Virus record (IMG/VR): IMGVR_UViG_2609459792_000007 | Strand: one strand, 5' to 3' | DNA: 64,000 bases | DNA from: a virus | Taxonomy: Duplodnaviria; Heunggongvirae; Uroviricota; Caudoviricetes | Shown here: piece by piece, positions 22,467 through 26,367 of the stretch | How positions within the stretch are numbered: position 1 is the stretch's first letter | Layout of the letters: every line of letters begins with the position of its first letter | Made by a program: the position numbers and the translations under genes | Notes under the pieces: generated by a model | Seen by the model: only the letters and a program-made list of their open reading frames with translations | Databases searched by the model: none | What the model was told of the DNA's origin: nothing

Positions 22467-22615
22467 TTCCATACATCTCATTAGCTTTTATGGGTGGCTT
22501 CCTTATTGGCTTCGGCATCTGTCGTGATTTAATTAAGCAGGAACTTAAAACCAAAACACTGTGCATCGGAAAGCGTGTGTATCGGGTAGTTCATGAAACA
22601 AAGGTTAGAAAATGA
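22463..22615 (+). CDS. small membrane protein (50 aa, below ORF-track cutoff)
   Basis: Read from sequence: MIPYISLAFMGGFLIGFGICRD..GKRVYRVVHETK; TM helix plus basic tail. Confidence 0.4.
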   Translation: MIPYISLAFMGGFLIGFGICRDLIKQELKTKTLCIGKRVYRVVHETKVRK

Positions 22616-22902
22616 GCAATTTAACTTCTTGGGACTGGTGGTTGGTCACCTATTTCTTAGCGGCTGGAGTAGCATTCGCCTTTTACGTAGGTCAGTTAGT
22701 CGTAAAACTGTTGCTGATTAAATTTGCTAGTCATAAACGTATCGATGATGGTCTGTGGCGTCTTGGCACCTTGGTGGAAACTCGCTACGGGCAACTTAAG
22801 GAGAACGAAACCATTACTATCCAAGCGAAACGATTCACTGCCACCATCACAAGAACACCTAGTCGTAGAGTGGCCTTGATCAAAAAAGTCACAACCGAAT
22901 AA
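22612..22902 (+). CDS. small membrane protein
   Basis: 96 aa; N-terminal TM helix (WWLVTYFLAAGVAFAFYVG), then ..LGTLVETRYG.. Confidence 0.45.
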   Translation: MSNLTSWDWWLVTYFLAAGVAFAFYVGQLVVKLLLIKFASHKRIDDGLWRLGTLVETRYGQLKENETITIQAKRFTATITRTPSRRVALIKKVTTE

Positions 22903-23681
22903 AAATACAATGATAAGTATTTACTTACTTATCTTATATGTATAAGATGACTTTGTTTTCGTTGAGACGCGACTGTTTGAACTTAAATACAAGTGCAAAC
23001 GAAGAAGTCTATCTGGCAGTAGCCTAATAAGCCAAACACCAGCGAGGTCAGTTTCCAGCCTCGTTACCGAAATGGGACACACTGAGCGAGTGTGATTGCA
23101 GAACGCAGGAGGGAACATTCATGTTCCCTCCGATGAAGTAACAGAATGGGCGGTTGGTATATTTTCAACTCCATATGACTCCCGGATTCTTAGCCACTGA
23201 CCGCCCATTCTGTTACGTCATTTTGTTCAATTATGTCGTTTATACTGGGTTAAAAAGCGGCGACGTAGCCCGGCTGGTATGGTCAGCCAGCACACAACGT
23301 TGAGGCCATTACATTTTTATCAATTCTAAGGTTCTATTCACAGAGATACCGGCGAGCGTTGATATGTAACATGTTGGGCAAACATTCAATCGGAGTAGTG
23401 GCCTCAACGTTGTGAAAATAGGATAGTTGTGTAGGTTTAACCACTGTTGCCATTGGTACCTGTTTTCACAACAAATGATTCCATACATCACATTGTATAA
23501 ATTACAAAGTAGGTGCTGTCCTCAGAAACATCATCTACTTAAATAATTTGCCTTCTACTATTGAGCGAAGTCGAAAGCGTCTGGCACTAACGAAAAGTGC
23601 AAGTAGCGGTGCGTTTCCTGGCAGAAACTAACACCGCCGCGATTGGCACTGTTGAGTAATAAATACTGGCAGTGCTGAATT

Positions 23682-23756
23682 GATGGTGTAGCTCAGCGGT
23701 AGAGCAGTTGGCTGTTAACCAACTGGTCGGTGGTTCGAATCCACCCACCATCGCCA
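23682..23756 (+). tRNA. tRNA-Asn (GTT)
   Basis: Cloverleaf read by hand: acceptor GATGGTG/CACCATC, D-arm GCTC-AGCGGTA-GAGC, anticodon loop CTGTTAA, T-arm GGTGG-TTCGAAT-CCACC, CCA encoded. Confidence 0.85.
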
Positions 23757-23761
23757 ATTTA

Positions 23762-23848
23762 GGGGAGTTAGTCCGTAGAGGTAGCGGGGTAGACTGTAAA
23801 TCTACTGTCATGGAGACTCGGGTGGTTCGACTCCATCACTCCCCACCA
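23762..23848 (+). tRNA. tRNA-Tyr (GTA), long variable arm
   Basis: Acceptor GGGGAGT/ACTCCCC, anticodon stem-loop GTAGA-CTGTAAA-TCTAC, long variable arm, TTCGA T-loop, CCA encoded; D-arm pairing atypical. Confidence 0.7.
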
Positions 23849-23852
23849 AATT

Positions 23853-23928
23853 GCCGGTTTAGCTCAGTTGGTAGAGCGCCTGCCTTGTAAGCAGGATGTC
23901 AGCGGTTCGAGTCCGTTAACCGGCACCA
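23853..23928 (+). tRNA. tRNA-Thr (TGT)
   Basis: Acceptor GCCGGTT/AACCGGC, D-arm GCTC-AGTTGGTA-GAGC, anticodon loop CTTGTAA, T-loop TTCGAGT, CCA encoded. Confidence 0.85.
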
Positions 23929-24142
23929 ATACAACGATAAGATCATTACGGTTAATCGTCGTTCATGTGCACAATGACTGGTCGAAAGGTAGTGATCTTA
24001 CCGTTGTGGTGGATTCGCAGACTGATGCGATAGCTTTCTTGGATGTTAGGGAAATGCGGCCGCAAATCTTCCCTTTCGCGAGCGGTGATCGTCCGTAGTC
24101 CTAATTGGCTGCACCGTATGCCGGAGATTCAGTACCGGCCAC

Positions 24143-24229
24143 CACAACGGCCGGAGAGTAGGGAGCATGGTGCTCAAGCGGTCTTGAAAACCGTCCCATT
24201 GCGCAAGCGATGATGGTTCGATTCCATTA
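24143..24229 (+). tRNA. tRNA-Ser (TGA), class II
   Basis: Acceptor GGAGAGT/ACTCTCC, anticodon stem-loop GCGGT-CTTGAAA-ACCGT, long variable arm, T-loop TTCGATT, CCA encoded; D-arm atypical. Confidence 0.65.
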
Positions 24230-24396
24230 CTCTCCGCCAGACACAGCGTTGAGCGGTTTGGCCTTTTAATCAACTCGATTAAGACTCCGCTAACATAAAC
24301 CAGACCGCTCAACGCTGTGATAGACAATTACGGCAGACGTTCTTAACCATAGCTTGCTAACATCCTAGCAACACTTTTTTTCAGCGCAAAATTCAA

Positions 24397-24418
24397 AGGG
24401 GCTTCGGCCCCTTTTTTG
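24397..24418 (+). terminator. rho-independent terminator after the tRNA cluster
   Basis: AGGGGC-TTCG-GCCCCT followed by TTTTTT. Confidence 0.8.
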
Positions 24419-24460
24419 CAACTGAAAGAGTCAAGTCTACGAACTTTGTAGGGAGAAATA

Positions 24461-24811
24461 ATGACCAGCAAAGAGAACACACCACTAAAAGTCACCCCTG
24501 AACACATTGAACAACTCATTCAAAGTGAACATTATTTCACTGCATATGATGCCAGCCACGGGGATAACTTCATCTCTGTTTACAATTCAAAAACAGATAT
24601 CGACAAAGGTCATGAGTCGTTAAAACTCTTAACGTTCTGCGTTATGGTTCTCAAAAATGGATATACCGTAACGGGAAAATCTGCGTGCGTAAGACCAGAA
24701 ATCTTCAACTTTGATGTTGGTCGTGAGTACGCTCGAAAAGATGCTATCGATCAAATCTGGCCCCTGGAAGGCTATCTCCTGAAGCAAAAGTGGCATGAGG
24801 CAAAGCAATGA
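24461..24811 (+). CDS. hypothetical protein
   Basis: 116-aa ORF; no motif recognised with confidence. Confidence 0.5.
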   Translation: MTSKENTPLKVTPEHIEQLIQSEHYFTAYDASHGDNFISVYNSKTDIDKGHESLKLLTFCVMVLKNGYTVTGKSACVRPEIFNFDVGREYARKDAIDQIWPLEGYLLKQKWHEAKQ

Positions 24812-25263: not shown

Positions 25264-26367
25264 ATGAAAAATAGCTTTGACAGAGCACGCGCTGCGGAGA
25301 ACACCTCAAAAGAGGCGATTGAGTATCTCGAAAGAGCATCTCAAATGCAGGCCGTTATGATCTCGCAGGTTAGCATTGATATGAGATTCTCGGACGCATT
25401 CATGTTATTCACTCGCTTATCTCTGCTGATAACCAGACGTCGGCCAGAGATCGCTGTTCATTGTATTTTGATACATGTTTTGCCGCACATTGCCGATGTA
25501 AAAGTAAGTGACATTAATAGGTTCATGGTGAACCAGCTGGTCAACCCACTAATACTGGATGGCAAAATTGTTATGGGCCGCCGCGTTTTCTCTCTGATGA
25601 AACAGTTCCTTAGCTGGTGCGCCTTCCAGGGGATGATAGACGTGTCACCGTTAAACGATATGTCACTAAACAAAGTTGCCGGTGGCGCAAAGCCCACACC
25701 TCGCGAGCGGAAGCTGACCGACGCAGAGGTATGGGTGTTCTGGAATATATGGGACTACTTCAATGTGTGCGCTGGTACAAAATGGGCGGCCAGGCTGTGT
25801 CTTGTATCAGCAAGACGACCTGACGAAGTACTGCGGGCTAAAAAAAGTGAGTTCAATCTTAAGCGTGGGGTTTGGAATCAAGGCAAGAGAAACAAGTCAG
25901 CACGTGAGCATTCGCTGCCTTTAAGCACATTAATGCGCACATGCATTGAAGAGTTGTTCGAATACGGTAAAGACAGCCAGTGGCTCGTGCCTTCGAATAA
26001 AAAAATCGGGAAAGACCTTCCTATGTCTAAAGTGGCAATAGCCCAGGCATTACGTCGTATTCTGGAACGACCAGAACTGATGGAGCTTGAGCCATTTACA
26101 CCCCGAGATTTGCGCCGTACTGCGCGTAGTTACTTCCCAGCATTAGGCATAAGCCAGGAGGTATCACGCAAAATCATGAACCACAGTCTTGAGGGGATAG
26201 ATCGGGTCTACGACCGGCACGATTATATGGACGAGATGCGAGACGCCTTAGAAAGTTTCTCGACGTACATCGCATCAATCGTAGAGCAACCGGATTTAGA
26301 CGAAATTGACCACAAATTCAAGGGAGATCGTCTATCAACAGAGCTTATTCGTGTAAATTTTTCATAG
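25264..26367 (+). CDS. tyrosine recombinase / integrase (P4-family catalytic domain, atypical N-terminus)
   Basis: 367 aa; C-terminal catalytic residues in RDLRRTARSYF and NHSLEGIDRVYDRHDY; N-terminal about 60 aa do not resemble the usual arm-binding domain. Confidence 0.75.
   Translation: MKNSFDRARAAENTSKEAIEYLERASQMQAVMISQVSIDMRFSDAFMLFTRLSLLITRRRPEIAVHCILIHVLPHIADVKVSDINRFMVNQLVNPLILDGKIVMGRRVFSLMKQFLSWCAFQGMIDVSPLNDMSLNKVAGGAKPTPRERKLTDAEVWVFWNIWDYFNVCAGTKWAARLCLVSARRPDEVLRAKKSEFNLKRGVWNQGKRNKSAREHSLPLSTLMRTCIEELFEYGKDSQWLVPSNKKIGKDLPMSKVAIAQALRRILERPELMELEPFTPRDLRRTARSYFPALGISQEVSRKIMNHSLEGIDRVYDRHDYMDEMRDALESFSTYIASIVEQPDLDEIDHKFKGDRLSTELIRVNFS

What the first reader, a model, noticed from the sequence alone, without database searches (positions are those of the whole stretch)
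22935..23680. ORF-free, highly structured region of about 750 bp upstream of the tRNA cluster
The segment has no convincing ORF but several stable inverted repeats: a perfect 11-bp palindrome GGAGGGAACAT/ATGTTCCCTCC (23108-23131), a 16-bp stem GTAACAGAATGGGCGG/CCGCCCATTCTGTTAC enclosing about 48 nt and followed by a T-tract (23138-23222), and a 14-15-bp inverted repeat CAACGTTGAGGCCA/TGGCCTCAACGTTG spanning 23296-23411. This pattern suggests one or more small RNAs, or a recombination/attachment region.
Basis: seen in the sequence. Interest (0 to 1): 0.55.

Follow-up and report, generated by a model that had tools for sequence, protein, structure and literature searches.

The report
Phage RNA mimicking and targeting tmRNA
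The "empty" 750 bases are the leader of a phage tRNA operon, and they begin with an unannotated RNA gene that copies the message part of the bacterial ribosome-rescue RNA (tmRNA), carries a different tag, and has a 5' end complementary to the host tmRNA, so the phage may block or reprogram ribosome rescue.

Summary
The window is an SSU5-like phage-plasmid. The stretch is the roughly 730-nt leader of a plus-strand tRNA operon and consists of conserved hairpins with compensatory changes and plus-strand G-U pairs.

The main result was not in the finding. Positions 22955-23107 encode a tmRNA-derived RNA:
- an A-U-A motif 4-6 nt upstream of a GCA resume codon
- a start-less 10-codon tag (ANEEVYLAVA, then two stops)
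- a helix enclosing the stop codon
- two pseudoknots with strong covariation

It has no tRNA-like domain, so it is not a tmRNA. Its first 24 nt are antisense to E. coli ssrA nt 82-104, which hold the frame-setting bases, the resume codon and codons 3-5. All 71 distinct 5' domains in 246 copies keep this two-arm complementarity, while the linker between the arms varies freely.

The family occurs in 766 of 50,697 phage genomes and 258 of 5,426 E. coli genomes, and I saw it annotated as an RNA nowhere.

Best reading: the RNA docks on host tmRNA and blocks or replaces its tag template. This is inferred and untested. The recombination-site idea has no support.

The parts
22920..22948 (+). Putative sigma-70 promoter: -35 TTTACT (22920-25), 17-nt spacer, -10 TAAGAT (22943-48). 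The predicted start is G22955. It overlaps a conserved 8-bp palindrome, GATAAGTA/TACTTATC (22911-22932).
   Evidence: Read from the sequence. It matches the consensus at 8 of 12 positions, so the tool's 9-of-12 scan did not call it. Both hexamers keep their position across the SSU5 family. In other contexts near-consensus promoters sit 6-8 nt upstream of the same GUUUUCG: TTGACA-N17-TATAGT in L004 and TTGACA-N17-TAATCT in L257. In L007 a TTGACA-N17-TAGATT sits about 14 nt upstream of it. Inferred, not shown.
22955..23107 (+). Core gene: a tmRNA-derived RNA that has the message-like part but no tRNA-like domain.
   Evidence: Homologous copies occur in 766 phage records and in 258 E. coli genomes, never annotated. 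There is a weak Rfam beta_tmRNA hit at 22985-23078 (E 0.066). ARAGORN reads the homologous tag as a tmRNA tag in Mooglevirus.
22955..22978 (+). 5' antisense anchor. Arm 1, GUUUUCGUUG (22955-64), pairs with E. coli ssrA nt 95-104. AGAC forms an internal loop. Arm 2, GCGACUGUUU (22969-78), pairs with ssrA nt 82-91, which include U85, A86, the -1 triplet and G90-C91 of the resume codon.
   Evidence: Duplex of 20 bp with 2 G-U pairs, dG -26.3 kcal/mol. The arms stay paired when the full-length RNAs are co-folded. All 71 distinct 5' domains pair with at least 6 of ssrA 85-92 and at least 7 of 97-104. Binding to the host site is predicted to be 2-22 (typically about 10) kcal/mol stronger than to the RNA's own equivalent site. 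Shuffle z is only -2.05 for this subclass, against -4.3 to -5.1 for the lambdoid classes.
22979..22994 (+). Single-stranded A-rich linker ending ...AUACAAGU just before the resume codon.
   Evidence: Across 149 distinct copies, -8 A, -6 A, -4 A and -3 A are invariant, -5 is U in 135 and C in 14 (this window has C), and -1 is U in 148. This matches A84-U85-A86 of E. coli tmRNA (numbering). The role of those bases in frame setting is established knowledge (Miller et al. 2008, PMC2481249, listed but not read here).
22995..23030 (+). Tag reading frame: GCA AAC GAA GAA GTC TAT CTG GCA GTA GCC TAA TAA, which reads ANEEVYLAVA followed by two stops.
   Evidence: The frame is always 10 codons plus a stop, with 24 peptide variants of the form A-N/K-D/E/S-x-x-x-L/K-x-A/V-A. 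Synonymous variation occurs (GCN at the last Ala, TAT/TAC, TTT/TTC). In 94 of 120 distinct copies an in-frame stop lies upstream, and in 91 of these no start codon lies between.
23013..23042 (+). Helix-5-like stem enclosing the stop codons: CUGG (23013-16) with CCAG (23039-42).
   Evidence: The stem covaries across the family in a scan not biased toward this sequence: CUGG/CCAG, CUGAU/AUCAG, UGAU/AUCA, UGCAA/UUGCA, AAAGC/GCUUU.
23043..23077 (+). Pseudoknot a. Stem 1: CGAGG (23043-47) with CCUCG (23059-63). Stem 2: loop UUCCA (23053-57) with UGGGA (23073-77).
   Evidence: Stem 1 has at least 6 arm types, all paired. Stem 2 variants are CCGA/UCGG, CCAG/CUGG, CCAA/UUGG, UUCCA/UGGGA, UUCCA/UGGAA and CUCCA/UGGAG. 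Formal count on alignment A4: 99.3% of cells paired, 7 of 14 pairs compensatory, covariation 0.416 against 0.173 in shuffles (0 of 500 reach it), and sliding the partners drops pairing to 50.5% or less.
23078..23107 (+). Pseudoknot b. Stem 1: CACAC (23078-82) with GUGUG (23090-94). Stem 2 is only tentative in this window (loop GCGA with UUGC).
   Evidence: Stem 1 has 8 arm types, all paired. In other classes stem 2 is strongly supported: GCCCUGA/UCAGGGC, GCCCAC/GUGGGC, GGCGGGAG/CUCCCGCC, ACCCUGA/UCAGGGU. It is not resolved for the SSU5 subclass.
23108..23131 (+).
   Evidence: 6 of the 8 predicted pairs show compensatory changes across 26 relatives, and the sequence differs completely between subgroups. 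It is absent in L145.
23133..23221 (+).
   Evidence: 24 pairs are conserved, 6 of them with compensatory changes, and many are G-U on the plus strand (for example GU:23 at the base pair and GU:13, GU:11 higher up).
23275..23293 (+). Small conserved hairpin GCUGG/CCAGC inside the conserved segment GACGUAGCCCGGCUGG...AGCCAGC.
   Evidence: The sequence is conserved in all SSU5-like groups, including the Klebsiella group. No covariation is available.
23293..23414 (+). It belongs to a family of cassettes closed by CACAAC...GUUGUG.
   Evidence: 19 pairs, 2 of them compensatory (GC:15/AU:11 at one). Plus-strand G-U and U-G pairs occur (GU:7, UG:5, UG:8). It is precisely absent in L132.
23409..23472 (+). 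Hairpin GUGAAAAUAGG/CCUGUUUUCAC.
   Evidence: Found. Arm variants seen in the alignment are GUGAAAGCAGG/CCUGGUUUCAC and GUGGCCACGG/CCGUGGCCAC. No formal count was made.
23474..23489 (+). Invariant box AAUGAUUCCAUACAUC, function unknown.
   Evidence: Conserved in every SSU5-like group. RNAalifold pairs it with the 5' acceptor strand of tRNA-Asn, but the pairs never vary. The box is also kept in the Klebsiella-type loci L010, L028, L044, L073 and L082, in which ARAGORN found no tRNA-Asn in the stretch examined.
23584..23676 (+). Three more conserved hairpins just upstream of tRNA-Asn: 23584-23600, 23603-23641 and 23646-23676.
   Evidence: Compensatory pairs occur in the first two (CG:20/UA:5, AU:20/GC:6, GC:19/AU:6). 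The third is specific to some subgroups.
23682..24239 (+). Downstream genes of the same transcription unit: tRNA-Asn, tRNA-Tyr and tRNA-Thr, a 224-nt structured insert, and tRNA-Ser.
   Evidence: ARAGORN and Rfam. No terminator is predicted between the promoter and these genes.

Best explanation
The ORF-free stretch is the leader of a rightward phage tRNA operon and is a chain of conserved RNA hairpins. Its first roughly 150 nt (22955-23107) are a gene for a tmRNA-derived RNA. This RNA keeps what a ribosome needs to resume translation on tmRNA: the A-U-A motif at -6 to -4, a GCA resume codon, a 10-codon tag with a stop inside a helix, and two downstream pseudoknots. It has lost the tRNA-like domain.

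In place of the upstream part of tmRNA it carries a two-arm antisense sequence. The arms are complementary to the single-stranded resume region of the host's own tmRNA (E. coli ssrA nt 82-91 and 95-104).

Proposed mechanism (inferred):
- The RNA docks on host tmRNA next to pseudoknot 1 and masks the host's frame-setting bases, resume codon and first codons.
- Its own linker and resume codon then sit at about the same distance from the host tRNA-like domain and SmpB.
- Rescued ribosomes would therefore add the phage tag (...YLAVA) instead of ...YALAA, or at the least host tagging would be blocked.
- In effect it would be a trans-supplied coding piece for a tmRNA assembled from host and phage parts.

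The downstream long hairpins are most likely processing or stabilising modules, or further small RNAs. Their 20-22-bp stems are of the length that RNase III cuts.

My confidence by step:
- real conserved plus-strand RNA family: 0.9
- derived from the tmRNA message domain: 0.8
- pairs with host tmRNA: 0.55
- its tag is actually translated on hijacked tmRNA: 0.35
For: Shown by computation:
1. The tag frame is conserved as a peptide without a start codon: 24 variants, always 10 codons plus a stop, with synonymous changes.
2. -6 A and -4 A are invariant and -5 is U in 135 of 149 copies, as at A84-U85-A86 of E. coli tmRNA.
3. The stop-enclosing helix and both pseudoknots covary.
4. ARAGORN itself reads the homologous Mooglevirus copy as a tmRNA tag, ANDNVFLAVA, and Rfam gives a weak beta_tmRNA hit on the window copy.
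5. The 5' domain is antisense to E. coli ssrA. The window copy forms 20 bp, dG -26.3. The HK620 class pairs nt 1-42 with ssrA 54-105, dG -39.6, z -5.1. Class B gives dG -46.1, z -4.3, and a 35-nt Smith-Waterman match to the reverse complement of ssrA 68-104 scoring 34 against a null maximum of 28 or less.
6. All 71 distinct 5' domains keep both arms, while the linker between them varies in length and sequence. Arm substitutions are wobble-compatible with the host target, for example GCGGCUGUUUUU and GCGAUUAUUUUU against GCGACUAUUUUU.
7. The arms fit the host site better than the RNA's own site in all 40 domains scored, by 2-22 (typically about 10) kcal/mol. None of the 24 phage tags retains the host's GAC-GAA-AAC that arm 1 would bind.
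8. The arms stay paired in a full-length co-fold.
9. The element sits 6-8 nt downstream of promoter -10 hexamers in unrelated contexts, or directly after an NCCA-ended tRNA-like hairpin, which fits a defined 5' end at G1.
10. Hairpin covariation and plus-strand G-U pairs support RNA rather than DNA structure.
Against: - No transcript, 5' end, RNA-RNA contact or tagged peptide has been observed. Everything is sequence-based.
- For the window's own subclass the duplex energy is only z -2.05 against shuffles (12 of 300). It is not significant for the Klebsiella-SSU5 and Felixounavirus subclasses (z about -1.2).
- The family members are homologous, so the shared arms are not independent observations.
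- All known hosts share one ssrA target sequence, so arm-target covariation could not be tested. The one attempt failed: Erwinia phage arm 2 (GCUUCUAUUUUU) predicted a different host -1 triplet, and a genome scan found no such enterobacterial ssrA. That phage would therefore carry two mismatches.
- An 8-nt seed could equally target some mRNA.
- Whether a ribosome can load a template tethered this way is unknown.
- Pseudoknot b stem 2 is unresolved in this window.
- The window promoter matches only 8 of 12 positions and was not called by the scan.
Confidence: 0.5

Rival explanations
1. Pure antisense inhibitor or sponge. The RNA pairs with host tmRNA and shuts down or slows trans-translation, for example to prevent degradation tagging of phage proteins or to push rescue to ArfA/ArfB. 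Its own tag frame is never translated, and the tmRNA-like 3' domain only stabilises the RNA or helps it find tmRNA or ribosomes.
For: It rests on the same complementarity evidence. It needs no unusual ribosome mechanics. The masked positions (U85, A86, the -1 triplet and the resume codon) are the ones needed to start tagging.
Against: It does not explain several features:
- the frame is always 10 codons with a conserved stop
- the peptide pattern AN[DE]...[LK]x[AV]A persists through synonymous changes
- the A-U-A frame-setting motif is invariant at -6 and -4
. RNA-structure constraints on codons 7-10 could account for part of this.
Confidence: 0.2
2. A self-contained phage system or decoy that does not act through host tmRNA pairing. 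Either the RNA is the coding piece of a phage-encoded split tmRNA whose tRNA-like piece lies elsewhere (for example the 24001-24150 module or T-arm-containing hairpins), or it titrates proteins that bind the message and pseudoknot region of tmRNA (S1, RNase R).
For: - tRNA-like hairpins with T-arms and NCCA ends flank many copies.
- A module with an acceptor-like 7-12-bp stem next to a T-arm-like hairpin lies at 24001-24150 and in 53 of 206 loci.
- ARAGORN assembles a 'permuted tmRNA' in Mooglevirus.
Against: - No tRNA-like partner is consistently present. ARAGORN calls a tmRNA in only 2 of about 187 loci, and there its 5' domain is really part of tRNA-Lys.
- Phage Cyrano and SSU5 lack the 24001-24150 module.
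- The candidate modules have no G3-U70 pair and no CCA end.
- The RNA's 5' end is not complementary to any of them.
Confidence: 0.1
3. An ordinary structured leader. The hairpins are only processing signals (RNase III, P or E) for the tRNA operon, and the tmRNA-like piece is a decaying fragment of captured ssrA with no function.
For: - It lies in the leader or spacers of tRNA genes in every context.
- Individual hairpins can be lost.
- The 20-22-bp stems suit RNase III.
Against: A decaying fragment would not keep covarying pseudoknots, a fixed 10-codon frame and both antisense arms in at least seven unrelated phage groups: Ounavirinae, Ackermannviridae, P22-like, SSU5-like, 45-kb Klebsiella phages, about 71-kb Salmonella phages and P1-like phages.
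Confidence: 0.1
4. A DNA-level element: an attachment or recombination site, an origin, or a cluster of MITE-like palindromes.
For: - An integrase gene lies 1.6 kb downstream (25264-26367).
- Hairpin cassettes closed by CACAAC/GUUGUG come and go between relatives.
Against: - G-U pairs are found on the plus strand only.
- The elements are co-oriented with the tRNAs everywhere.
- The same core occurs in virulent phages.
- No similarity to the E. coli chromosome was found outside prophages.
Confidence: 0.04
5. A small protein. In this window an ATG at 22948 is in frame with the tag, which would give a 26-aa peptide ending in ANEEVYLAVA.
For: The frame is open from ATG 22948 to TAA 23025.
Against: - The ATG lies inside the -10 hexamer, upstream of the predicted start, and has no Shine-Dalgarno sequence.
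- In 94 of 120 distinct copies an in-frame stop lies upstream of the tag, and in 91 of them there is no start codon in between.
- 1-2-nt indels fall upstream of the tag within the SSU5 family.
Confidence: 0.03

Closest known systems
tmRNA (SsrA), mRNA-like domain with helix 5 and the pseudoknots (Rfam RF00023 and the permuted families RF01849-51, RF04321)
   Same: - GCA resume codon preceded by A-U-A at -6 to -4.
- A 10-residue tag starting AN[DE] and ending in a hydrophobic-Ala-type C-terminus.
- A UAA stop inside a helix, followed by H-type pseudoknots.
- ARAGORN recognises the tag in one subgroup.
   Different: - No tRNA-like domain: no acceptor stem with G3-U70, no T-arm, no CCA.
- No pseudoknot 1.
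- Two downstream pseudoknots rather than three.
- About 150 nt instead of 363.
- No Rfam hit at gathering score.
- The 5' part is antisense to tmRNA rather than homologous to it.
Two-piece (permuted) tmRNA of Alpha- and Betaproteobacteria and cyanobacteria
   Same: The tag template sits on a separate RNA that is held to the tRNA-like piece only by base pairing.
   Different: In two-piece tmRNA both pieces come from one permuted gene and pair through the acceptor stem and helix 2. Here the presumed partner is the complete host tmRNA, the contact is to its message region, and the two RNAs are encoded by different genomes.
Phage-encoded tmRNAs (mycobacteriophages such as Bxz1, Bacillus phage G) and the tRNA-like-domain-only RNA of mycobacteriophage DS6A (PMC4131195, PMC11915505)
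   Same: A phage genome carries tmRNA-derived sequence. The DS6A RNA is a partial tmRNA that inhibits host tmRNA.
   Different: Those are complete tmRNAs or the tRNA-like half. This RNA is the complementary, message-only half plus an antisense anchor, and it is found in enterobacterial phages. The 2014 survey identified ssrA in no plasmid or viral genome other than mycobacteriophages and Bacillus phage G.
Trans-acting antisense and sponge RNAs of phages and prophages with 5'-end seeds (for example the prophage anti-sRNAs AgvB and AsxR, or P1/P7 C4 RNA processed by RNase P); cited from my own knowledge
   Same: A short conserved 5'-terminal seed, a defined 5' end produced by transcription start or tRNA-type processing, and a host RNA as the presumed target.
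   Different: The presumed target is tmRNA itself, and the effector part imitates the target's own coding region.
Large structured phage RNAs next to tRNA genes (GOLLD, ROOL) and the T4 tRNA-cluster stable RNAs C and D; cited from my own knowledge
   Same: Structured non-coding RNA embedded in phage tRNA clusters.
   Different: No Rfam match to GOLLD or ROOL. The region is modular, made of independent hairpins that can be lost one at a time, rather than one large fold.

Membership tests
tmRNA (SsrA) | tRNA-like domain: acceptor stem with a G3-U70 pair, a T-arm and a 3' CCA | tested here: not met
   ARAGORN finds no tmRNA in the window, nor in any locus except two Mooglevirus loci. In those two its 5' domain is really part of tRNA-Lys. 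Rfam at E <= 10 over 22850-24470 gives no tRNA-like-domain hit, including the permuted tRNA-like-domain-only model.
tmRNA (SsrA) | Start-less tag reading frame that opens with an alanine resume codon and ends in a stop | tested here: met
   GCA...UAA, always 10 codons, 24 peptide variants. In 91 of 120 distinct copies there is an upstream in-frame stop and no start codon.
tmRNA (SsrA) | Frame-setting bases upstream of the resume codon (U85 and A86 in E. coli) | tested here: met
   -6 A in 149 of 149, -5 U in 135 of 149 (C in this window), -4 A in 149 of 149.
tmRNA (SsrA) | Stop codon inside helix 5, followed by pseudoknots | tested here: met
   The stop-enclosing helix covaries. Two H-type pseudoknots: 99.3% of cells paired and 7 of 14 pairs compensatory. 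There are two pseudoknots, not three.
tmRNA (SsrA) | Pseudoknot 1 and helix 2 linking the message to the tRNA-like domain | tested here: not met
   The 39-57 nt upstream of the tag are instead complementary to host ssrA. No conserved internal pseudoknot could be established there.
tmRNA (SsrA) | Rfam gathering score | tested here: not met
   Best hit is beta_tmRNA at 14.4 bits against a gathering score of 84.
Two-piece tmRNA coding piece | The 5' end forms the acceptor stem with a co-encoded acceptor piece, in a permuted gene order | tested here: not met
   The 5' GUUUUCG has no complementary ...CGAAAAC-N-CCA partner in the window (sequence reading; the nearest is CGAAAAG at 23591-97). Flanking tRNA-like hairpins are self-contained.
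Trans-acting antisense RNA against host tmRNA | Conserved complementarity to an accessible region of the target | tested here: met
   20 bp in the window and up to about 40 bp in the lambdoid classes, aimed at ssrA 54-105. Both arms are kept in 71 of 71 distinct 5' domains. That nt 79-107 of tmRNA are single-stranded is established knowledge, not tested here.
Trans-acting antisense RNA against host tmRNA | Covariation between the antisense arms and the target in hosts with different ssrA | tested here: inconclusive
   All identified hosts share the same target sequence. For the Erwinia phage, a scan for the predicted variant ssrA found none, and the host's real ssrA could not be fetched.
Trans-acting antisense RNA against host tmRNA | The transcript exists and contacts tmRNA in vivo | not testable with these tools
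   No expression or interaction data were available. Literature searches found nothing.
Phage attachment site / recombination site | Identity with a bacterial tRNA or tmRNA gene 3' end, or mapped junctions | not tested
   Only indirect evidence. E. coli chromosomes match the core only through what appear to be prophage copies (14 chromosomal places; the two listed are about 74% identical, like HK620).
GOLLD / ROOL large phage RNAs | Match to the Rfam covariance model | tested here: not met
   No hit at gathering score or at E <= 10.

The most novel reading that the evidence does not exclude
Enterobacterial phages and phage-plasmids encode a 'tag-swap' RNA. It is a tRNA-domain-less surrogate message that base-pairs with the host's tmRNA at the resume site. 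The host tRNA-like domain and SmpB would still rescue stalled ribosomes, but the ribosomes would then translate a phage-chosen tag (...LAVA, ...LMAA or ...LAAA instead of ...ALAA). The phage would thereby take control of the fate of proteins from stalled ribosomes. This would be the first case of a parasite reprogramming trans-translation, and the first natural tmRNA assembled from RNAs of two genomes.
Probability: 0.35. Interest if true: 0.95.

Novelty: new variant of a known kind. Interest (0 to 1): 0.8.

Why it matters
Trans-translation is the main ribosome-rescue and quality-control pathway of bacteria, and it is an antibiotic target. Several phages are known to depend on it, but no phage factor that acts on tmRNA's message has been described. 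The searches here found none. The tmRNA surveys I consulted report complete tmRNAs (mycobacteriophages, Bacillus phage G) and one tRNA-like-domain-only RNA (DS6A). The 2025 database counts 79 phage entries but does not name them.

An RNA family present in about 1.5% of sequenced phage genomes, in about 5% of complete E. coli genomes (on SSU5-like plasmids), and on Yersinia pestis pMT1 would give three things:
- a directly testable case of a parasite rewriting or blocking the host degradation tag
- a natural design for tethering a new template to tmRNA
- a reason to annotate these "empty" spacers

Even if only the conservative part holds, a large, well-supported RNA family with two pseudoknots is missing from Rfam and from genome annotation.

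Tried and rejected
- **Rfam.** Gathering threshold on the whole window and E <= 10 on 22850-24470 gave only tRNAs plus a weak beta_tmRNA hit. There was no riboswitch, ribozyme, GOLLD, ROOL or Y-RNA (YrlA scored 15 bits inside a tRNA).
- **ARAGORN for a tmRNA.** None in the window or in SSU5 relatives.
- **A tRNA-like partner.**
  - The 5' GUUUUCG as an acceptor strand: no CGAAAAC-N-CCA partner.
  - The loop of hairpin 23133-23221 has 9- and 10-nt matches to the ssrA T-loop and pseudoknot 1 (E 0.4-1.7). They are not conserved in relatives, so I treated them as chance.
  - The 24001-24150 module looks tRNA-like but is absent from close relatives.
- **More antisense segments to ssrA in the rest of the leader.** A short-word BLAST found nothing beyond 7-10-mers.
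- **Internal pseudoknot 1 in the 5' domain.** Candidate pairings (GUUUUC/GAAAC, CUUUG/CAAAG) do not hold across classes or in register, so I dropped the idea in favour of pairing in trans.
- **Cis pairing of the 5' domain with the RNA's own resume region.** It is weaker than with the host site, by 2-22 (typically about 10) kcal/mol.
- **Protein coding.**
  - The minus-strand 65-aa ORF (22921-23118) recurs in SSU5 relatives but is broken in frame by 1-2-nt indels, and its start point varies.
  - The plus-strand 26-aa ORF is not conserved.
- **Promoter and terminator scan.** It called no promoter and no terminator in the region. The promoter is therefore argued from conservation only.
- **Literature.** Eight searches found no description of this RNA. 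No expression data for pMT1 or pHCM2 were retrieved.
- **Covariance model built from non-SSU5 members.** Considered as a test of the window copy, but skipped as redundant with BLAST homology and the structural parsing.
Full report
**1. What the window is**

The window is an SSU5-like phage-plasmid of E. coli. The stretch with its flanks is 96-98% identical to Escherichia phage CMS-2020a and phage Cyrano, and the stretch itself to about 185 E. coli plasmids of roughly 110 kb. It is 77-80% identical over part of its length to Salmonella phage SSU5, to Klebsiella, Enterobacter and Cronobacter plasmids, and to Yersinia pestis pMT1.

The finding lies between a small plus-strand ORF (22612-22902) and four plus-strand tRNA genes:
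- tRNA-Asn, 23682-23756
- tRNA-Tyr, 23762-23848
- tRNA-Thr, 23853-23928
- tRNA-Ser, 24153-24239

The same roughly 750-bp unannotated gap sits upstream of tRNA-Asn in SSU5 and Cyrano.

**2. The observation**

The stretch folds with z = -8.5 on the plus strand and -11.4 on the minus strand against shuffles. Only short ORFs occur. Across 35 diverse relatives they are not conserved in place or frame, and 1-2-nt indels lie inside them.

**3. The hairpins are conserved plus-strand RNA structure**

I collected SSU5-like relatives from plasmids, phages and IMG/VR contigs and reduced them to 35 representatives less than 97% identical to each other. I then folded alignments of separate modules.

- **Hairpin 23108-23131.** 6 of its 8 predicted pairs show compensatory changes, and the sequence is completely different between subgroups.
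- **Hairpin 23133-23221.** 24 conserved pairs, 6 of them compensatory. Many are G-U as read on the plus strand, for example 23 of 26 sequences at the base pair.
- **Hairpin 23293-23414.** 19 pairs, 2 of them compensatory (one splits GC:15 and AU:11), plus G-U and U-G pairs on the plus strand.
- **Two of the three hairpins in 23584-23676** also show compensatory pairs.

G-U pairs would be A-C mismatches on the other strand, so the selected structure is a plus-strand RNA. Single modules are cleanly missing in some relatives: L132 lacks the 23293-23414 hairpin and L145 lacks 23108-23131. The leader is therefore modular.

No terminator is predicted before the tRNAs, so the stretch is most simply the leader of the tRNA operon.

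**4. The unexpected part: a tmRNA-like gene at the left end**

A distant BLAST of the stretch showed that about 100 nt (22943-23097) are roughly 76% identical to unannotated spacers in unrelated phages:
- the Felixounavirus tRNA array
- the late-gene leader of HK620, between qut and the late terminator
- upstream of tRNA-Ser in Klebsiella phage Carvaje

Reading these sequences shows a shared reading frame with no start codon:
- window: GCA AAC GAA GAA GTC TAT CTG GCA GTA GCC TAA TAA, which reads ANEEVYLAVA and two stops
- Mijalis: ANDNVFLAVA
- HK620 and Carvaje: ANEEMYLAVA

E. coli tmRNA encodes ANDENYALAA. ARAGORN reads the Mooglevirus copy as a tmRNA tag. Rfam gives a weak beta_tmRNA hit on the window copy (E 0.066).

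**5. Size and diversity of the family**

Three pattern scans of IMG/VR plus fetched records gave 246-248 copies with 149 distinct sequences and 24 tag peptides.

- The third scan was anchored upstream of the tag, so it was not biased toward ...LAVA. It revealed ANDDVVLMAA, ANDDLMLMAA, ANDDLMLAAA and others.
- The frame is always 10 codons plus a stop.
- The peptide pattern is A-N/K-D/E/S-x-x-x-L/K-x-A/V-A.
- Synonymous variation is present: all four GCN codons at the last Ala, TAT/TAC, TTT/TTC.
- In 94 of 120 distinct copies an in-frame stop lies upstream, and in 91 of them there is no start codon before the tag.
- Upstream of the resume codon, -8 A, -6 A, -4 A and -3 A are invariant and -5 is U in 135 of 149. 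These positions correspond to A84-U85-A86 of E. coli tmRNA, whose role in choosing the frame is established (Miller et al. 2008, PMC2481249, listed but not read here).

**6. Structure downstream of the tag**

A helix encloses the stop codon, as helix 5 does in tmRNA, and it covaries: CUGG/CCAG, CUGAU/AUCAG, UGAU/AUCA, UGCAA/UUGCA, AAAGC/GCUUU.

Two H-type pseudoknots follow.

- **Pseudoknot a.** Its loop (CCGA, CCAG or CCAA) pairs with a downstream UCGG, CUGG or UUGG. In the SSU5 class the loop UUCCA or CUCCA pairs with UGGGA, UGGAA or UGGAG.
- **Pseudoknot b, stem 1.** It occurs as CGCAC/GUGUG, CGCAU/AUGUG, CGUAC/GUAUG, CGCAG/CUGUG, CGGAU/AUCUG, CACAC/GUGUG and CAGAC/GUCUG.
- **Pseudoknot b, stem 2.** It has many fully compensated forms, but it is not resolved for the window's subclass.

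A formal count on a 29-sequence MAFFT alignment that excludes the SSU5 class gives:
- 99.3% of cells paired
- 7 of 14 pairs with changes on both sides
- covariation score 0.416 against 0.173 in shuffles (0 of 500 reach it)
- 50.5% or less paired when the partners are slid

**7. It is not a tmRNA**

No tRNA-like domain is found. ARAGORN finds none in the window, in SSU5 relatives, or in all but two of the loci held at that point. In the two Mooglevirus calls, the '5' tRNA domain' is part of a real tRNA-Lys. Rfam's tRNA-like-domain-only permuted model does not hit.

tRNA-like hairpins flank many copies. Some have T-arms, and some end in ...UUUCCA directly abutting the GUUUUCG start. They vary from genome to genome and are self-contained.

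**8. The 5' domain is antisense to the host's tmRNA**

Every copy begins with GUUUUCG. I fetched E. coli ssrA (L187:301-663). Its resume codon is G90, pseudoknot 1 spans 47-78 and the linker spans 79-89.

GUUUUCGU is the exact reverse complement of ssrA 97-104 (ACGAAAAC, within tag codons 3-5). The complementarity extends further:

- **Window.** RNA nt 1-10 pair with ssrA 95-104, and nt 15-24 (GCGACUGUUU) pair with ssrA 82-91 (AAAUAGUCGC). That second site holds U85, A86, the -1 triplet and the first two bases of the resume codon. In total there are 20 bp with 2 G-U pairs and a 4x3 internal loop, dG -26.3 kcal/mol.
- **HK620 class.** Nt 1-42 pair with ssrA 54-105, dG -39.6.
- **Class B.** dG -46.1. 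Nt 1-35 align to the reverse complement of ssrA 68-104 with a score of 34 against a null maximum of 28 or less.

Against dinucleotide-preserving shuffles, z is:
- -5.1 for the HK620 class
- -4.3 for class B
- -2.05 for the window class (12 of 300 shuffles reach it)
- about -1.2 for the Klebsiella-SSU5 and Felix classes

Energy alone is therefore convincing only for the lambdoid classes.

Four further observations carry weight:
- All 71 distinct 5' domains pair with at least 6 of ssrA 85-92 and at least 7 of 97-104. The segment between the arms varies in length and sequence (AA, UGAGAC, CACGUUA, CAGCAAUCAA and others).
- Arm substitutions are wobble-compatible with the fixed target. GCGGCUGUUUUU and GCGAUUAUUUUU both still pair where GCGACUAUUUUU would.
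- Predicted binding to the host site is stronger than to the RNA's own equivalent site in all 40 domains scored, by 2-22 (typically about 10) kcal/mol. None of the 24 phage tags retains GAC-GAA-AAC, and the RNA's own -3 to -1 is AAU, ACU or AGU rather than GUC. The RNA thus avoids binding itself.
- The arms stay paired when the full-length RNAs are co-folded, with a net gain of -9.8 kcal/mol for the window and -12.6 for HK620.

**9. Expression signals (inferred)**

In the window, TTTACT-N17-TAAGAT ends 6 nt before G22955. It matches the consensus at only 8 of 12 positions, and the scan did not call it. Both hexamers keep their position across the SSU5 family.

Elsewhere, near-consensus promoters end 7-8 nt before the same GUUUUCG: Mijalis has TTGACA-N17-TATAGT and Erwinia phage Roscha1 has TTGACA-N17-TAATCT. 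In other contexts the GUUUUCG directly follows an NCCA-ended tRNA-like hairpin. This is consistent with a defined 5' end at G1.

**10. How it most likely works**

*Shown:* a conserved RNA with tmRNA-type resume signals, a tag frame and pseudoknots, no tRNA-like domain, and a conserved two-arm complementarity to the host tmRNA resume region.

*Inferred:* the RNA docks on host tmRNA just 3' of pseudoknot 1. In the lambdoid classes it also invades the 3' strand of pseudoknot 1. It masks the host's frame-setting bases, resume codon and first codons. Its own 16-nt linker (nt 25-40) and resume codon then sit at about the distance from pseudoknot 1 that the host's 11-nt linker provides. A ribosome rescued by the host tRNA-like domain and SmpB would then resume on the phage frame and add a phage tag.

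The weaker version is plain inhibition of host tagging.

I cannot say what the altered tag does. The phage tags change exactly those C-terminal positions and vary at SspB-contact positions.

My probabilities:
- real RNA family: 0.9
- derived from tmRNA: 0.8
- pairs with host tmRNA: 0.55
- tag swap: 0.35

**11. Distribution and novelty**

The core matches 766 of 50,697 phage records: Salmonella 272, Escherichia 229, Klebsiella 110, Erwinia 46, plus Shigella, Serratia, Citrobacter, Enterobacter, Cronobacter, Vibrio and Pantoea. The phage groups include Ounavirinae, Ackermannviridae, P22-like, 45-kb Klebsiella siphoviruses, about 71-kb Salmonella phages, SSU5-like and a P1-like phage. In the records listed, the annotation under the match is 'none' or a hypothetical protein.

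It is also present in 258 of 5,426 complete E. coli genomes, almost always on plasmids, and has no RNA annotation in any listed RefSeq record.

The 2014 tmRNA survey lists phage ssrA only in mycobacteriophages and Bacillus phage G, plus the tRNA-like-domain-only RNA of DS6A. The 2025 database paper counts 79 phage sequences without naming them. Eight full-text searches found no description of this RNA or of any antisense RNA to tmRNA.

I file it as a new variant of a known kind: a tmRNA-derived RNA. If the hijack is real, the mechanism would be new in category.

**12. Limits**

- Nothing here shows a transcript, an RNA-RNA contact or a tagged protein.
- The copies are homologous, so they are not independent evidence.
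- All hosts share one target sequence, and the only attempt at a host-covariation test failed.
- Statistical support for the duplex is modest for the window's own subclass.
- The functions of the downstream hairpins and of the invariant box at 23474-23489 remain unknown.

Noticed in passing
window 23929-24152 (especially 24001-24150): A 224-nt structured insert lies between tRNA-Thr and tRNA-Ser. It is absent from the close relative Cyrano but shared at about 94% identity with phages P7 and D6. It contains a 12-bp closing stem (CCGUUGUGGUGG/CCACCACAACGG), a hairpin CGCAGACUGAUGCG, and a T-arm-like hairpin GCCGG...CCGGC that directly abuts the 3' strand of the closing stem. This layout resembles a tRNA-like domain but has no CCA end and no G3-U70 pair. 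The same module (GUGGUG-AAUGCGCAGGCUGAUGCGC...GCCGGAGAUCAGCACCGGC-CACCAC) lies within 1.5 kb downstream of the tmRNA-like core in 53 of 206 loci, and both of its hairpins covary.
   Followed up: partly
window 24242-24319 and 24393-24416: After tRNA-Ser there is another hairpin with 20-nt arms (CACAGCGUUGAGCGGUUUGG/CCAGACCGCUCAACGCUGUG), of the same CACARC...GYUGUG type as the one at 23293-23414. A GC-rich hairpin with a T-run (AAAGGGGCTTCGGCCCCTTTTTT) follows and probably ends the operon. The scan tool did not call it as a terminator.
   Followed up: no
window 22911-22932: A conserved 8-bp palindrome, GATAAGTA-TTTACT-TACTTATC, is centred on the putative -35 hexamer and is kept in all SSU5-like groups. 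It could be an operator, or the terminator of the upstream gene.
   Followed up: no
window 23474-23489: The box AAUGAUUCCAUACAUC is invariant. It is conserved even in the Klebsiella-type relatives, which otherwise diverge after about 23290 and in which ARAGORN found no tRNA-Asn in the stretch examined. RNAalifold pairs it with the 5' acceptor strand of tRNA-Asn about 200 nt downstream, but those pairs never vary.
   Followed up: partly
L083 (Yersinia pestis pMT1, NC_004835) 1544-2008: pMT1 keeps the tmRNA-like RNA (tag ANEDTYLAVA) and the first hairpins. The homology ends about 10 nt before caf1R, so the F1 capsule locus appears to be inserted into this leader.
   Followed up: no
L004 (Citrobacter phage Mijalis) about 1978-2045: A tRNA 3' half (T-arm GAAGGUUCGAUUCCUUC, acceptor strand ACCCUUC, then G-CCA) is followed after only 4 nt by the matching 5' half (GAAGGGU-UA and a D-arm GUGUAAUGGCAGCAC). 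This is the order expected of a circularly permuted tRNA-like gene. ARAGORN used it as the '3' tRNA domain' of its permuted-tmRNA call.
   Followed up: no
L006, L014, L023, L026 and other lambdoid prophage contigs, flanking the core: A family of long hairpin cassettes reads CACAAC-AGGUAAGAGCA...UGCUCUUUCC(A/G)-GUUGUG. Their loops vary widely, some contain a canonical T-arm (GGGUUCGAAUCCC), and some end in NCCA directly abutting the next RNA. They look like tRNA-type punctuation for processing, or like mobile cassettes.
   Followed up: partly
L087 (Salmonella pSTM_Phi) just upstream of tRNA-Asn: An extra mini tRNA-like sequence of about 60 nt (GGGAGUUGCUGGGCGGCCAGUUAGGAGCUGGCGUGAGGUUCGAUUCCUCAGCUCCCCG) has a 7-bp acceptor stem and a T-arm but no anticodon arm. 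ARAGORN did not call it.
   Followed up: no
window 22612-22902: The small upstream ORF is annotated 'C-type natriuretic protein' in SSU5 and several plasmids. For a 96-aa phage protein with a predicted N-terminal membrane helix, this is almost certainly a propagated mis-annotation.
   Followed up: no
L260 (Punavirus P1 isolate MH422554) 595-760: A P1-like phage carries a divergent copy of the tmRNA-like RNA (tag ANDDLMMVAA) directly after a terminator. Its pseudoknots have different sequence from those of the other classes.
   Followed up: no
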